From Blastocystis sp. subtype 4 (taxonomy: Eukaryota), in the NCBI RefSeq assembly GCF_000743755.1, contig NW_014569507.1:1-49764 (forward strand): a stretch of DNA of 49,764 nt, in the 5' to 3' direction. The translations under genes and the position numbers were made by a program. This document shows positions 33,428 to 36,876 of this stretch, in pieces (positions within the stretch are counted from its first letter, which is position 1; every line of letters begins with the position of its first letter). Below the pieces are notes generated by a model that worked only from the letters and a program-made list of their open reading frames with translations, was not told the origin of the DNA and ran no database searches.

Positions 33428-34118
33428 CTATTCTGTTTTCTCGGCCGATAACTCATCTGCAAGCCTATAGATTACAAGAATCACTCTCTACCCTACCAGT
33501 CAAAACCATCAACAAGACCCTTTCCGCTTGTTGCCGAAGACTCAAAGATCGTCCACTTTCTATCACGAATTTCTGTTAGTCCAAGTGCCTCTGAAATCTT
33601 AGCTCCATTCAAAGCTCCAGGAAGATCCTGCTTGTTTGCGAAAATCAATAATGATGTTCCCTTCAGCTCATCTTCCTATACATGATAGGACAAATTCAAT
33701 CCCACTTTGAGAATGGCAGCCAACTCGGCTTTTGCAATATTGAGACGATCAATATCGGCACTATCGACAACAAAGATAACAGCATCTAGGACTAAGAACA
33801 AGTACACACCTCAAACCAGTATTTGTGAAATAGCAACGCCAATAAGGTCGAATACTCGTCTGACCTCCCAGATCCCATACCTGGAAAGTAAGGTTCTTGT
33901 ATTTCAGTGTCTCCACGTTAAAACCGATTGTAGGAACTGTAGACACCACTTCGTCGAGTTGCATACGATCTAAAAGATTGTAAAACACATGCCACACCTA
34001 TTGAGAGAAACTTACAGAGGATAGAAGTCTTTCCAGCATTATCAAGACCAAGAACAAGAATTCGTACTTCTTTGTTTCCAAAGTACTGGTTAAAAAGTTT
34101 GGAGATCCATATACCCAT
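33428..34118 (-). CDS. ARL1: ADP-ribosylation factor-like GTPase 1
   Basis: MG start, [17 protein letters not shown], the ARL1 signature [16 protein letters not shown] and FANKQD. Four short introns. Confidence 0.95.
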
Positions 34119-34180
34119 TCGTACAATCAGACACCGAAAAATGTGAGGGAAAAGTGAGGTAGAAGTTTCACTTGTTGCTT
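34119..34180. promoter_or_regulatory. 62-nt divergent (bidirectional) promoter region between ARL1 and PHD-AMT1
   Basis: Head-to-head ATGs at 34118 (-) and 34181 (+). Confidence 0.6.
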
Positions 34181-35699
34181 ATGTCTGACATTGATCTCTC
34201 CATCTGCTATTGCGGATGGGGGTACAATCGTCCAATGATACGTTGTTGTCATTGTAAACGATGGTATCACTACGATTGGTATTCGATGTTTTTTTATCTG
34301 AGATGGTAGTGTCAATGTCACAGCAACTGATTTGGAAGATCCAAATCACTACTATTGCTTTATGTGTATCGATTTTAAACCAGACTCAGGTAATTCCAAG
34401 GGATTAGATAAACCTAAGATAGTGGCGATGATTATGATTTTGATGAGGATTTGAAAAGACAAAGGGAGATGAACCGTGAGGCTCGAAAACGAGTTCGCCA
34501 GATGTGTATTATTTGTATTGGGAAGAGTCAGAACTAGTAAAAGATGATACATTTAGTAGCAAAAGTGTCATGTCCATGGAGAAGAGTAGTATTCTTCGTA
34601 CCATGTGTTGTATTGAGCAACAGTTGCTTTTAGAAGATCATTCTCCTTCTCTCCATGATTCTTCTCTTAGTTACAAGCAAACCCTTTTGCAAAACGTTCG
34701 TGAAGATGTATTGTTCGTATTAACTCTATCATCGTAGGAGGAATACCGTATACAGTTGTTAAATACCAATCCCTTAATGAAGGAGCTTTTCTTTGATATC
34801 GAACGTTCTGGAGAATATAAACATGTTCTTAGTCTATCTTCCTATCTCGTAGCTCGTGAAGGCAATCGTCGCTCGAACCGCTTCGTTCCGAAGTATGACG
34901 AATACTGTAAGCATTCTATTTGTTGTATTATTTATAGGGATGCAAATTTCGCGACGATTGCTAGATTTTGAAGTCCCTGTTAATTCTGTTGGCATTAATG
35001 CGGACATCCGAACATTTGATTGGCGCGTAGGGATACCTCAAGAATTCAAAAATAGCGATTTGGCCGCGTCCAGAGGGAACTCACTGGACATCTATTTGAC
35101 GTAGTTATGATGGACCCACCATGGCATTTATCCAGTGCTGACCCCTGTCGAGGGGTATGAAATCGACTCAGATCTAAGGAATAGGTAGCAATTAAGTATC
35201 AGCAATTGGATGATGAATCAATTGCCAGTATTCCAATTCATCTTATCCAAGATGATGGGTTATTGTTTTTATGGACAATCAATGCAAAGTATACAACAGC
35301 ACTGCGCATTATTCAAAACTGGGGTTATGTATTGATAGGGGATATATCATGGGTCAAGTTATCTGCCCGTAATTTTGTAATCCAAAGTAATGGATTTTAT
35401 TTACAACATGCAAAAGAAACCTGTTTCGTTGCGAAAAAGGTAGGATTGAAAATGTGATTCCATAATAGGGAAATTGCAATGCACTGGATAAAACAAAGAT
35501 CGGTTTGGTGAAAGACGTTATCTTTTCAAAGCGAAAGGGGCAGAGTCAGAAGCCAAACGAGATTTATAGTATTATTGAATCATTAGTCCCAAATGGTAAT
35601 GCCAGTTGTAGAGTGTTTACTATAGGTTACTACGTAGAAATATTTGGAAGAAGAAACAATCTTCGTAATGACTGGGTCACAATCGGAAATGAAATTTGA
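34181..35699 (+). CDS. AMT1: PHD finger + AMT1/MTA1-type MT-A70 adenine-N6 methyltransferase (415 aa, 9 introns)
   Basis: Catalytic region FDVVMMDPPWHLSSADPCRGVAIKY (DPPW at 35113-35124), FLWTINAKY, GFYLQHAKETC, RKGQSQKPNEIY and EIFGRRNNLRNDWVTIGNEI. N-terminal C4HC3 finger at 34205-34367. Nine 29-32 nt introns leave 1248 coding nt in one frame. Confidence 0.88.
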
Positions 35700-35948
35700 T
35701 TTTCACGTTTTCTATATTGGTTTGGTGAATTTACACCTTCTTCGTTATTTGAATGTTTGTTGCATCTATTATGAATGGATAGTCTCCCTGGGTGGATTAG
35801 TGTACTAATACGTCTATTACATACAATTCTCGTTCAGTCCAAATTATATCCCTAATCTACTCTCACTTCTTCACAGAATAATCCTTCGTACTGACTCCTT
35901 ACATATGTGACTCAAACCGAATCTTTGTTTTGTTTTCTTTTTTCAAAA

Positions 35949-36876
35949 ATGAATTATTCGCTACAGCCTGTGCCAGTTACATATGCTCCAGTAGCAGTAC
36001 CTGCTACTACTATGCCTTTGAATCCTCCAGCACTGGAGATGCCACAAGTAAATCCAGTACAACCTGTACCAATGACAGTTACTCCTGTCAATCCAGTGGA
36101 TGTTGTGAAGCCACTTCCGACTTATGCTCCTCAACAACAGATTCGTAAGGAAGAAGAATTGGATATTATGAATAGCAGCTCCAGAAGACTCTATAACGTC
36201 TTTCCTTATGGAACCTCAGTTCTATGTCAGAGTAAAAGAAGTTAGAACTTGTGGTCCTTTGGAGTTTGGCGTTTATCCCAGTGATTACTATGGTCAACCC
36301 AATTTAAGTTGTGATCCCGTTTGTTCTGTATAGAAATGGGAATTGGTAATAATCAGTAGTTGTCATTATCTGACACTCTTCACAAGGGAAGCTTCACTAT
36401 CAATAATGTGACATACGATATTCACAAGAAGTCTTCAAGGACAGCATTCAGCATAAAGAACAGAACAACTGGAAATAAGTTCTGCACAATTGACTTTTCA
36501 AGTGGATGTTGCAGTGTAGGCTTCAAGATCGAGTTTGCAGATATCAATCGCACATTTGATGGAAAGTTTGTGATTAATGGAAATGAGTCTTGGTAGGTTT
36601 GATAACGAGGAGTCATTGTTAGTGCTGTGATTAACGAAGGGAGGGGAATGGGTACCGTTACGATCCTTGGGGAAGAGAATTGTGTAAGTATATTGTATGG
36701 AGCTTATTGGTAGCAGGTTCCAACATGTGTACTGGTTATTCCTTCTTCAAAGCCAGATGAATCCTTGAATGCTATGACCATTCGCTCTATGTATATTGCT
36801 TTAGCAGCTATATTATATTCAATGTAAGGGATGGTACAATGATTGATCTTCTAGTACTATTAGCGGTCAATATTAA
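35949..36876 (+). CDS. Hypothetical protein with a Pro-rich N-terminus and beta-rich body (possibly scramblase/tubby-like)
   Basis: QPVPVTYAP-type repeats, beta-strand-like exons containing GCCS and a terminal hydrophobic helix (MYIALAAILYS). The fold is a guess. Confidence 0.55.

What the first reader, a model, noticed from the sequence alone, without database searches (positions are those of the whole stretch)
34181..35699. PHD finger fused to an AMT1/MTA1-type DNA 6mA methyltransferase
Seen: two short exons missing from the ORF track encode CYCGWGYNRPMIRCCHCKRWYHYDCVNV...YYCFMC, a complete C4HC3 PHD finger. Nine 29-32 nt GT-AG introns join it in one frame to an MT-A70 domain with an intact DPPW motif. 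Known: DPPWxLSSxxPxRGVAIxY, INAKY, GFYLQHAKE, GQSQKP and RRNNL are typical of ciliate MTA1/AMT1, which methylates ApT in DNA, rather than of the RNA enzymes METTL3/14. The Met and the Trp of WYH are the usual H3K4me3 cage residues, although the usual Tyr before the first Cys is Ile here. Inference: one polypeptide could both read active chromatin and write 6mA. As I recall, the ciliate catalytic subunit lacks a PHD. Chromatin-domain fusions may already be reported in other lineages, so novelty needs checking.
Basis: partly seen in the sequence, partly recalled or inferred. Interest (0 to 1): 0.9.

Follow-up and report, generated by a model that had tools for sequence, protein, structure and literature searches.

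The report
PHD finger fused to AMT1 methyltransferase
A Blastocystis gene makes one spliced transcript that encodes a histone-reader-type PHD finger joined to an AMT1-type DNA adenine methyltransferase domain, which would likely tie 6mA writing directly to H3K4-methylated nucleosomes, a link that other organisms are thought to make only through separate proteins.

Summary
The window is a whole 49,764-bp contig of Blastocystis sp. subtype 4. A ten-exon gene lies at 34181-35699 (+). One 1,296-nt contig in a public run carries all nine splices in a single molecule. The protein is letter-for-letter an NCBI entry from Blastocystis sp. BT1, named only 'hypothetical protein'. The subtype 4 reference model is truncated and lacks the PHD.

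The MT-A70 domain is AMT1/MTA1-type: 229 bits to Tetrahymena MTA1, against 104 to METTL3 and 40 to METTL14. The DPPW motif is intact. The PHD is C4HC3 and is closest to the H3K4me2/3 readers PHF23, CFP1, PHF2 and PHF13. All three PHF13 cage positions are kept (Tyr15, Met19, Trp28).

New here: Blastocystis has a second PHD-AMT1 paralog, and a few unnamed metagenomic proteins share the architecture. The window's paralog has lost three DNA-contact residues of the MTA1 substrate loop (K286F, K289Q, H291N).

I found no paper that describes an AMT1-PHD fusion; a PHD is noted only on the p1 subunit of ichthyosporeans. Histone binding and 6mA activity are untested. Verdict: a new variant of a known kind, of moderate to high interest.

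The parts
34181..35699 (+). Complete coding region (ATG to TGA) of the PHD-AMT1 gene. It has 10 exons and encodes 415 aa.
   Evidence: Identical to NCBI protein P0002. One spliced contig covers all of it.
34205..34367 (+). PHD finger, residues 9-52 (C4HC3), split by intron 1. The predicted methyl-lysine cage is Tyr15, Met19 and Trp28.
   Evidence: Pfam PHD E 7.3e-5, 23.2 bits against a cut-off of 24. PDB PHF23 E 9.5e-9 and CFP1 E 4.4e-7. Mapped to PHF13 F241, M246 and W255. AF2 pLDDT is 77-88 with the two-strand hairpin.
34279..34309 (+). Intron 1 (31 nt, GT-AG), inside the PHD.
   Evidence: Joint 34277|34309 skips 31, GT..AG, in the X1 contig. Retained in a depth-2.2 contig of run X2.
34390..34418 (+). 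Intron 2 (29 nt).
   Evidence: 29 nt left out at 34388 in the X1 contig.
34506..34537 (+). Intron 3 (32 nt).
   Evidence: Joint skips 32, GT..AG.
34708..34737 (+). Intron 4 (30 nt).
   Evidence: 30 nt left out at 34708.
34907..34937 (+). Intron 5 (31 nt).
   Evidence: Joint skips 31, GT..AG.
35027..35055 (+). Intron 6 (29 nt).
   Evidence: 29 nt left out at 35027.
35155..35184 (+). Intron 7 (30 nt).
   Evidence: 30 nt left out at 35154.
35440..35468 (+). Intron 8 (29 nt).
   Evidence: 29 nt left out at 35438.
35596..35625 (+). Intron 9 (30 nt, in frame if retained). It is mis-spliced in the subtype 4 reference model P0001.
   Evidence: 30 nt left out at 35595.
34419..35094 (+). Linker, residues about 60-244 (introns 3-6 lie inside). 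It runs acidic stretch, basic stretch, then helices. It includes the motif IEQ.LL.ED.SPS.H, shared with the paralog proteins P0020, P0021 and P0022.
   Evidence: Alignment A1. AF2 gives helices at low confidence. A weak 8-bit alignment of its last helix to the MTA1 N-terminal region is a hint only.
35095..35693 (+). MT-A70 methyltransferase domain, residues 245-414 (introns 7-9 lie inside).
   Evidence: Pfam MT-A70 E 3.8e-35, profile 1-172 of 172. Tetrahymena MTA1 E 5.7e-67. Foldseek ranks 1-12 are MTA1/AMT1.
35113..35124 (+). Catalytic DPPW motif (D251-W254).
   Evidence: Invariant in the 79-sequence alignment.
35356..35409 (+). Substrate-binding loop, residues 322-339. It is divergent: MTA1 K286 is Phe328, K289 is Gln331 and H291 is Asn333.
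35700..35747 (+). 3' UTR up to the end of the transcript contig.
   Evidence: The X1 contig ends at 35747.
35754..35761 (+). TGTTTGTT, the Blastocystis downstream polyadenylation motif. It lies 6 nt past the contig end.
   Evidence: The motif and its usual spacing of 4 nt (3-5) are from passages of PMC4159000.
34118..34180 (.). 63-bp divergent intergenic region shared with the minus-strand ARF-like GTPase gene.
   Evidence: RNA-library contigs end at 34128 and 34129.

Best explanation
The gene at 34181-35699 is a ten-exon Blastocystis subtype 4 gene whose spliced transcript encodes one 415-aa protein with an N-terminal PHD finger and a C-terminal AMT1/MTA1-type MT-A70 domain; the PHD is predicted to dock on H3K4me2/3 histone tails, and the enzyme would then methylate adenines (ApT) in the neighbouring linker DNA.

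Shown: the gene structure, the single transcript, the two domains, the intact DPPW motif and adenine pocket, and the closer likeness to MTA1 than to METTL3, METTL14 or MTA9. Also shown is the conservation of the PHD plus MT-A70 architecture in a second Blastocystis paralog and in a few unnamed relatives.

Inferred: that the PHD binds H3K4me2/3 (from likeness to PHF13, PHF23, CFP1 and PHF2 and the kept Tyr/Met/Trp cage). That the enzyme writes 6mA on DNA, probably as a heterodimer with the single AMT6/7-type partner counted in B. hominis. That the fusion replaces the indirect recruitment to H3K4me3/H2A.Z nucleosomes described for the Tetrahymena AMT7 complex.

The window's paralog has lost two basic residues and the wedge His of the MTA1 substrate-binding loop. 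Its own grip on DNA is therefore likely weaker or different, and tethering through the PHD may matter more for it.
For: Gene and transcript. The model is and is identical to NCBI P0002. One 1296-nt contig lacks all nine introns and has 0 mismatches. That contig ends 6 nt before a TGTTTGTT motif.

AMT1 type.
- Pfam MT-A70 E 3.8e-35.
- Against PDB sequences: Tetrahymena MTA1 229.6 bits, METTL3 104.4, METTL14 40.1, MTA9 22.1.
- Foldseek ranks 1-12 are MTA1/AMT1, with METTL3 from rank 14.
- In a 71-row tree rooted on METTL3, the protein lies in the 59-row AMT1-like group (support 92). It is apart from the ZZ-bearing AMT2/5 clade (99*) and from METTL3 (98* branch).
- 17 of 22 MTA1 residues named in PMC12485025 as contacting the adenine, the DNA or p1 are identical. 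These include D209, P210, W212, R221, I254, F293, Q296, Q331, S332 and K334.
- Supplementary Table 1 of PMC12695648 counts B. hominis as AMT1 2, AMT6/7 1, and METTL3, METTL14, METTL4 and AMT2/5 all 0. One of the three B. hominis sequences in its tree is CBK23014, which is P0020.

PHD.
- C4HC3 ligands are present.
- The best solved relatives are PHF23 (E 9.5e-9), CFP1, PHF2, PHF13, EBS, BPTF, MLL5 and TAF3.
- The PHF13 cage F241/M246/W255, whose mutation abolishes H3K4me3 binding (PMC4915813), maps to Tyr15/Met19/Trp28. Ala1-pocket residues I247, P269 and F272 map to Ile20, Pro44 and Tyr47.

Conservation of the fusion. P0020, P0021, P0022 and P0032 all carry PHD plus MT-A70. Holding the two Blastocystis groups as one clade is not rejected: the log-likelihood is 11 higher and p-AU is 0.68.

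Context. 6mA lies between H3K4me3 nucleosomes across AMT1-bearing eukaryotes, and the authors note that co-localisation would need intermediate proteins where p1 lacks a PHD (PMC12695648). The Tetrahymena AMT7 complex is recruited to H3K4me3/H2A.Z nucleosomes (PMC11761967).
Against: No binding or activity data exist, and I found no report of 6mA in Blastocystis DNA.

The Pfam PHD score is 23.2 bits, just under the gathering cut-off of 24.

PHF13 T234 and E248, whose Ala mutants also lose binding, are Ile8 and Arg21 here.

The substrate-binding loop differs from MTA1 at 5 of its 8 named residues: T282S, N284R, K286F, K289Q and H291N. [quoted passage not shown] Among 139 homologous sequences, the Ile/Phe at K286 and the Gln at K289 occur only in this paralog's clade. 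Asn at H291 occurs in this clade and in 5 other proteins.

The B. hominis paralog P0020 has Leu at both the Met and the Trp cage positions. A methyl-lysine cage is therefore not kept in all PHD-AMT1 proteins.

A low-depth contig from an RNA library retains intron 1.

My trees hold no AMT6/7, METTL14 or METTL4 sequences.
Confidence: 0.5

Rival explanations
1. This paralog is a reader-bearing but catalytically weak or regulatory subunit. It keeps DPPW but has lost the DNA-gripping loop residues. It would act mainly to bring a partner to chromatin, either the canonical paralog A or the AMT6/7 heterodimer, or it would have a changed substrate preference such as unmethylated instead of hemimethylated DNA.
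For: K286F, K289Q and H291N sit in the substrate loop. In Tetrahymena these residues are needed for DNA binding and activity, and H291 touches the methyl group of the 6mA on the opposite strand. The changes are fixed across the paralog's clade, including relatives at 61-68% identity. The clade sits on a long branch (stem 1.19). A PHD-bearing AMT1-like protein with a degenerate active site, HPPW, exists elsewhere (P0208).
Against: DPPW and all 12 named adenine-pocket and gate-loop residues are identical to MTA1. Asn at the H291 position also occurs in 5 other AMT1 homologs that keep both lysines. B. hominis already has a separate AMT6/7-type partner.
Confidence: 0.2
2. The enzyme is an AMT1-type DNA methyltransferase, but the PHD reads something other than H3K4me2/3. 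Candidates are unmodified H3, another histone mark or a non-histone partner. It could also be only a structural zinc module.
For: The Pfam score is below the cut-off. Ile8 and Arg21 replace PHF13 T234 and E248, whose mutation abolishes binding. Paralog P0020 lacks the Met and Trp. [quoted passage not shown]
Against: All three PHF13 cage residues are kept as Tyr, Met and Trp. The eight best solved matches are all to five proteins (PHF23, CFP1, PHF2, PHF13 and EBS), which I recall (PHF13) as H3K4me2/3 readers. A variant of exon 1 from another sample keeps all three cage residues.
Confidence: 0.15
3. It is an RNA m6A methyltransferase, as the database names suggest ('mRNA (2'-O-methyladenosine-N6-)-methyltransferase', 'mRNA m(6)A methyltransferase'). 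It would stand in for the missing METTL3/METTL14 pair.
For: These are names given by NCBI and UniRef. B. hominis has no METTL3 or METTL14. The DNA-binding loop is divergent.
Against: The names are automatic labels for any MT-A70 protein. The same names are attached to ciliate and algal proteins in the AMT1-like hit list. Likeness to MTA1 is more than twice that to METTL3 in bits. The protein has no CCCH or other RNA-binding domain and has a chromatin-reader domain instead.
Confidence: 0.07
4. The fusion is a gene-model artefact: two neighbouring genes joined by chance open frames.
For: The subtype 4 reference annotation has only a 295-aa MT-A70 protein. One low-depth contig retains intron 1.
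Against: One contig at depth 195 joins all ten exons. An independent NCBI annotation gives the identical 415-aa protein. Paralogs have the same architecture. P0001 starts at an internal Met159 and has a frame-shifted tail.
Confidence: 0.02

Closest known systems
Tetrahymena thermophila MTA1 / AMT1, the catalytic subunit of the MTA1c 6mA methyltransferase complex (PDB 7F4R, 7YI8, 8XYL, 9U9E)
   Same: MT-A70 domain at 229 bits over residues 214-415. DPPW motif. 17 of 22 named functional residues are identical. Best fold match.
   Different: MTA1 has a disordered, low-complexity N-terminus and no PHD. The window protein carries a PHD. It also differs at T282, N284, K286, K289 and H291 of the substrate-binding loop.
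Second Blastocystis PHD-AMT1 paralog (P0021 and P0140 in subtype 4 / BT1; P0020 = CBK23014 in B. hominis subtype 7)
   Same: Same architecture: PHD, acidic and basic linker, the IEQ.LL.ED.SPS.H helix, then MT-A70. 41-43% identity over the full length.
   Different: The paralog keeps the canonical loop (R/K, K, H). Its PHD lacks the Tyr15-equivalent aromatic, and in subtype 7 it also lacks the Met and Trp. The window's clade evolves faster.
PHD domain on the p1 subunit of the AMT1 complex in ichthyosporeans (PMC12695648)
   Same: A PHD attached to the 6mA-writing machinery. Its authors propose it as a possible link to H3K4me3.
   Different: There the PHD sits on the DNA-binding accessory subunit p1. 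Here it is on the catalytic MT-A70 subunit itself. I saw only text passages of the paper, not Supplementary Fig. 5.
PHF13 / PHF23 PHD fingers (PDB 3O7A, 6WXK)
   Same: The best sequence matches of the PHD. They share the RPMI.C..C..W.H core, the Phe-or-Tyr/Met/Trp cage, and a non-aromatic residue before the first Cys.
   Different: PHF13 E248 is Arg here, and there is a two-residue insertion before the Pro of the Ala1 pocket. Binding is untested.
METTL3-METTL14 RNA m6A writer
   Same: MT-A70 fold and DPPW motif.
   Different: 104 and 40 bits against 229 for MTA1. No CCCH zinc fingers. The GFYLQHAKE and GQSQKP motifs are AMT1-type.
AMT2/5 MT-A70 proteins with C-terminal ZZ zinc fingers
   Same: A eukaryotic DNA 6mA MT-A70 enzyme fused to a chromatin-type zinc module.
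   Different: A separate clade (99*). The zinc module is ZZ rather than PHD and is C-terminal.

Membership tests
MT-A70 superfamily (Pfam PF05063) | Full-length match to the MT-A70 profile above the gathering score | tested here: met
   121.8 bits against a cut-off of 23.9, profile 1-172 of 172.
AMT1 / MTA1 clade of MT-A70 | Catalytic DPPW motif and adenine-pocket residues | tested here: met
   D251-W254 are present. L214, R221, V223, I225, Y227, I254, S332 and K334 equivalents are identical (residues from PMC12485025).
AMT1 / MTA1 clade of MT-A70 | Closer to MTA1/AMT1 than to METTL3, METTL14, MTA9 (AMT6/7) or AMT2/5 | tested here: met
   229.6, 104.4, 40.1 and 22.1 bits respectively. Foldseek ranks 1-12 are MTA1. 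The METTL3-rooted tree separates it from METTL3 (98*) and from ZZ-bearing AMT2/5 (99*).
AMT1 / MTA1 clade of MT-A70 | Placement inside AMT1 in a phylogeny that holds all six eukaryotic MT-A70 families | tested here: inconclusive
   My trees lack AMT6/7, METTL14 and METTL4. The published 607-taxon tree counts 2 AMT1 in B. hominis. I did not read which accession is which, and the window's subtype 4 protein is not in that tree.
AMT1 / MTA1 clade of MT-A70 | MTA1-type substrate-binding loop (K280, K286, K289, wedge H291, F293, Q296) | tested here: not met
   K280, F293 and Q296 are kept. K286 is Phe, K289 is Gln and H291 is Asn. Of 139 homologs, His is at this place in 117 and Asn in 22. The loop is a functional feature of the Tetrahymena enzyme rather than a formal family criterion.
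AMT1 / MTA1 clade of MT-A70 | Methylates ApT in dsDNA, with AMT6/7, p1 and p2 partners | not testable with these tools
   No genome is held for the window. One AMT6/7 is counted in B. hominis. p1 and p2 in Blastocystis were not examined.
PHD finger (Pfam PF00628) | C4HC3 zinc-ligand pattern and a profile match | tested here: met
   The ligands are C9, C11, C22, C25, H30, C33, C49 and C52. Pfam E is 7.3e-5, but 23.2 bits falls 0.8 bit short of the cut-off. PHF23 E 9.5e-9 and 37 PDB sequences at E 0.01 or better, nearly all of them named PHD fingers or PHD-containing proteins. The AF2 hairpin has pLDDT 77-88.
H3K4me2/3-reading PHD subclass (PHF13, PHF23, CFP1, PHF2, BPTF type) | Methyl-lysine cage residues | tested here: met
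   PHF13 F241, M246 and W255 map to Tyr15, Met19 and Trp28. The BPTF-type fourth wall, a Tyr before Cys1 (recalled), is Ile8, as it is Thr in PHF13 and PHF23.
H3K4me2/3-reading PHD subclass (PHF13, PHF23, CFP1, PHF2, BPTF type) | Measured binding to H3K4me2/3 peptides | not testable with these tools
   This needs a bench assay.

The most novel reading that the evidence does not exclude
One copy keeps the canonical hemimethyl-sensing DNA loop. The other, in this window, keeps the fuller methyl-lysine cage but has shed the loop's two lysines and the His that touches the opposite-strand 6mA. The two copies would divide the work, for example chromatin-guided de novo or nucleosome-tethered methylation against replication-coupled maintenance. 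In ciliates that division is made by swapping the AMT6 and AMT7 partners.
Probability: 0.25. Interest if true: 0.8.

Novelty: new variant of a known kind. Interest (0 to 1): 0.6.

Why it matters
The 2025 cross-eukaryote survey (PMC12695648) and the Tetrahymena work (PMC11761967) show that 6mA sits in linkers between H3K4me3 nucleosomes. They leave open how the writer finds them. No direct reader is known in the core complex, apart from a PHD on p1 in ichthyosporeans.

A natural single-chain reader-writer makes the question testable with one recombinant protein: does H3K4me2/3 binding stimulate or position ApT methylation on nucleosome arrays?

It also predicts that Blastocystis carries transcription-linked 6mA. 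Blastocystis is a very common human gut eukaryote and lacks METTL3/14. I found no paper reporting 6mA in it.

The finding also corrects the subtype 4 reference gene model.

Tried and rejected
- **Gene modelling.** An exhaustive path search timed out. Searches for the fewest introns gave wrong models that cut out the DPPW motif or part of the PHD, so I set the introns by frame and GTA...AG ends.
- **Own genome.** None is held for the window, so AMT6/7, p1, p2, SET1/MLL and histone H3 of this organism could not be searched.
- **First laying of reads.** X1 gave 0 contigs at 90% likeness. The second call, on a slightly different stretch at 85%, laid the spliced contig. X5 laid nothing.
- **Metagenome scan.** L001 proved to be the same subtype 4 sequence, with exons 100% identical, so it adds no conservation evidence. 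L002 and L003 hold only the C-terminal part.
- **N-terminal search, residues 1-213.** Besides self, only P0143 came up. Its first 32 aa match exon 1 at 84% and then run into an unrelated HD domain. It is probably a chimeric contig or a read-through gene call, and is only weak support.
- **Representative search with P0032.** No listed hit's best stretch covers its PHD. A pattern scan of the 139 new proteins found one further PHD, in P0208.
- **ESM Atlas.** No large cluster combines PHD and MT-A70. By the tool's own terms a blank shows nothing.
- **Earlier findings of this scan.** None by sequence, words or place.
- **Free tree.** It put the window's clade next to ciliate-like rows on a long branch. 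I treat this as unreliable because the constrained tree is better.
- **Complex prediction.** Not run. The AMT6/7 partner's sequence was not in hand, and any two MT-A70 domains would tend to pass by likeness to solved heterodimers.
- **Literature.** Searches for an AMT1-PHD fusion or for 6mA in Blastocystis found no such report. For PMC12695648 I read passages, section 6 and a search of its supplement text. For PMC4738411, PMC12485025, PMC11761967, PMC4915813, PMC4159000, PMC5608401, PMC13297926, PMC10984389 and the 2026 bioRxiv preprint I read passages only. [quoted passage not shown] 1d of PMC12695648, could not be seen and may show more architectures.
Full report
**What is there.** The window is a complete 49,764-bp contig of Blastocystis sp. 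subtype 4. The annotated subtype 4 protein P0001 has a longest contig of exactly that length. Its GC content is about 40%.

Reading 33700-36300 and translating three frames shows a gene broken by very short introns. Automatic searches that minimise intron number gave wrong models. Setting the introns by frame continuity gave ATG 34181, TGA 35697-35699, ten exons and nine GT-AG introns of 29-32 nt. All nine begin GTA.

The 415-aa product is identical to an NCBI protein of Blastocystis sp. BT1, annotated 'hypothetical protein' (P0002). The subtype 4 reference model P0001 (295 aa) starts at internal Met159 and leaves the true frame at residue 393. It therefore lacks the PHD and has a false C-terminus. 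Introns of about 30 nt are the norm in Blastocystis (passage of PMC5608401).

**Is it transcribed as one unit?** Yes, in at least one public run. In run X1 a single 1296-nt contig (word depth 195) lies on 34181-35747 with no mismatches. All nine introns are removed at the predicted places. It ends 6 nt before a TGTTTGTT motif at 35754-35761. Klimes et al. found that motif 4 nt (3-5) downstream of Blastocystis poly(A) sites (passages of PMC4159000). X1's library type is not on record, but a spliced molecule cannot be genomic DNA.

Three results point the other way or add little:

- A 246-nt contig at depth 2.2 in a metatranscriptome (X2) covers 34128-34373 with intron 1 retained.
- Run X4, of unknown kind, is unspliced over introns 2, 4 and 5. 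Both fit DNA carry-over or pre-mRNA.
- A 1411-nt contig in X6 touches the PHD and the MT-A70 coding parts at about 85% identity. It has 847 nt between them, where 835 are expected. It is probably the same kind of mRNA from another strain.

**The methyltransferase.**

- Pfam gives MT-A70 at E 3.8e-35 over the whole profile.
- Against all PDB sequences the best matches are the Tetrahymena MTA1/AMT1 chains (E 5.7e-67, 229.6 bits, residues 214-415). METTL3 scores 104.4 bits, METTL14 40.1 and MTA9 22.1.
- An AlphaFold2 model has mean pLDDT 74.6, with the MT-A70 part mostly above 90. Its Foldseek ranks 1-12 are MTA1/AMT1 structures, with METTL3 from rank 14.
- In a 71-row tree rooted on METTL3-type sequences, the window protein and its close relative P0003 (100*) sit in the AMT1-like group of 59 rows (support 92). 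They are apart from the ZZ-bearing AMT2/5 clade (99*). That tree has no AMT6/7, METTL14 or METTL4.
- Independently, Supplementary Table 1 of Romero Charria et al. 2025 lists B. hominis with 2 AMT1 and 1 AMT6/7 and no METTL3, METTL14, METTL4 or AMT2/5.

**Functional residues.** I mapped the 22 MTA1 residues that the DNA-bound cryo-EM study names (passages of PMC12485025). Seventeen are identical: the DPPW motif, the gate-loop residues L214, R221, V223, I225 and Y227, I254, K280, F293, Q296, Q331, S332 and K334, and the p1 contacts R358 and E371.

The five differences all lie in the substrate-binding loop: T282S, N284R, K286F, K289Q and H291N. [quoted passage not shown] H291 wedges into the duplex and touches the methyl group of the opposite-strand 6mA, and H291F abolishes activity.

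Of those 22, 17 belong to the window's own clade, many of them near-duplicates, and 5 are other proteins. The Ile/Phe and Gln replacements of the two lysines occur only in the window's clade. The catalytic pocket therefore looks intact, but the DNA grip is derived.

**The PHD.** Residues 9-52 have the C4HC3 ligands. Pfam PHD gives E 7.3e-5 at 23.2 bits, which is 0.8 bit under the cut-off. The 60-residue N-terminus alone matches 37 PDB sequences at E 0.01 or better, nearly all of them named PHD fingers or PHD-containing proteins. The best are PHF23 (9.5e-9), CFP1, PHF2, PHF13, EBS, BPTF, MLL5 and TAF3.

In the PHF13-H3K4me3 crystal structure the cage is F241, M246 and W255. Mutating T234, F241, M246, E248 or W255 abolishes binding (passages of PMC4915813). 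By the HMMER alignment:

- The cage residues map to Tyr15, Met19 and Trp28.
- Ala1-pocket residues I247, P269 and F272 map to Ile20, Pro44 and Tyr47.
- T234 maps to Ile8 and E248 to Arg21.

It carries little weight, because PHF13 and PHF23 have Thr there. The AF2 model gives the PHD hairpin at pLDDT 77-88.

**How common is the fusion?** Tetrahymena MTA1 has no PHD. Of the 120 relatives listed, out of 293 with E at or below 1e-5, four carry a precomputed PHD hit:

- P0020 (B. hominis CBK23014).
- P0021 (a second gene in BT1, whose 90% cluster holds the subtype 4 protein P0140).
- P0022 (N-terminally cut, source unnamed).
- P0032 (473 aa, source unnamed).

Pfam scans confirm them. A pattern scan found the complete C4HC3 pattern in 4 of the 142 proteins held at that point. 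A full HMMER pass with P0032 over 1.84 billion representatives listed 150 proteins. Among the 139 that were new, one more had a PHD. This is P0208, whose AMT1-like domain is degenerate, with HPPW and no GFYLQH or GQSQKP.

Blastocystis thus has two PHD-AMT1 paralogs. They share the PHD, an acidic then basic linker and a conserved IEQ.LL.ED.SPS.H helix. In the free tree the window's clade sits on a long branch away from the other paralog. The tree that holds both together has a log-likelihood 11 higher and is not rejected (p-AU 0.68). In the rooted tree the PHD label needs only 2 changes, which 0 of 500 shuffles matched. One fusion followed by duplication is the simplest reading, though it is not proven. 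The subtype 7 copy of the other paralog has Leu at both the Met and Trp cage positions.

**Mechanism proposed.**

- Shown: one polypeptide with a PHD and an AMT1-type catalytic domain.
- Inferred: the PHD docks on H3K4me2/3 tails. The MT-A70 domain, probably paired with the AMT6/7-type subunit, then methylates ApT adenines in adjacent linker DNA.

This would be a covalent version of what is reported elsewhere. 6mA lies between H3K4me3 nucleosomes in AMT1-bearing eukaryotes. The authors of that survey note a PHD only on ichthyosporean p1, and say that elsewhere co-localisation would need intermediate proteins (PMC12695648). In Tetrahymena the AMT7 complex is recruited to H3K4me3/H2A.Z nucleosomes through other proteins (PMC11761967).

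The divergent loop of the window's paralog leaves real room for a different role, as a weak or regulatory subunit or one with a changed DNA-state preference. I give that rival 0.2.

**Novelty.** The sequence is public, and a paralog carries both Pfam hits in public databases. My searches found no paper that describes or discusses an AMT1-PHD fusion, or 6mA in Blastocystis (passages read). Iyer et al. 2015 describe PHD and other reader fusions in other adenine methyltransferase clades, and ZZ fusions in one MT-A70 subclade. In the passages I saw, they describe no PHD on this subclade. Figures and some supplements could not be read. I rate it a new variant of a known kind, with interest 0.6.

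Noticed in passing
window 33600-34117 (-), intron 33970-34015: The upstream divergent neighbour is an ARF/ARL-like small GTPase gene, with its start codon at 34117-34115. A contig of run X3 joins 33969 to 34016, which removes a 46-nt GT-AG intron of that gene. Only 63 bp separate the two start codons. Contigs from two RNA libraries end at 34128 and 34129.
   Followed up: partly
window 34181-35699 versus P0001: The subtype 4 reference protein (295 aa, named an mRNA cap methyltransferase) is a mis-model. It starts at Met159 of the real protein and reads a wrong frame from residue 393, because intron 9 was placed differently.
   Followed up: yes
P0216, P0261, P0248, P0203 (hits): AMT1-like MT-A70 domains sit at the C-terminus of retroelement polyproteins that carry reverse transcriptase, RNase H, integrase and Chromo domains. 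In the tree they fall within the AMT1-like group. Sources are unnamed.
   Followed up: partly
P0208 (271 aa, hit): A BPTF/CFP1-like PHD is fused to an AMT1-derived MT-A70 domain with HPPW instead of DPPW and no substrate loop or GQSQKP motif. It looks like a PHD-bearing pseudo-enzyme. It pairs with P0022 on a very long branch.
   Followed up: partly
P0143 (292 aa): Its first 32 residues are 84% identical to exon 1 of the window gene and stop exactly at the exon boundary. An unrelated HD/HDOD domain follows. It is probably a chimeric metagenome contig or a read-through gene call from another Blastocystis strain.
   Followed up: partly
P0120 (440 aa): An AMT1-type protein from an unnamed source has N-terminal double zinc-ribbon domains instead of a PHD. 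This is another N-terminal zinc-module fusion on the same catalytic domain.
   Followed up: no
window 35950-36245 (+): The next gene downstream starts at about 35950, with a Pro/Val-rich N-terminus. It was not identified.
   Followed up: no
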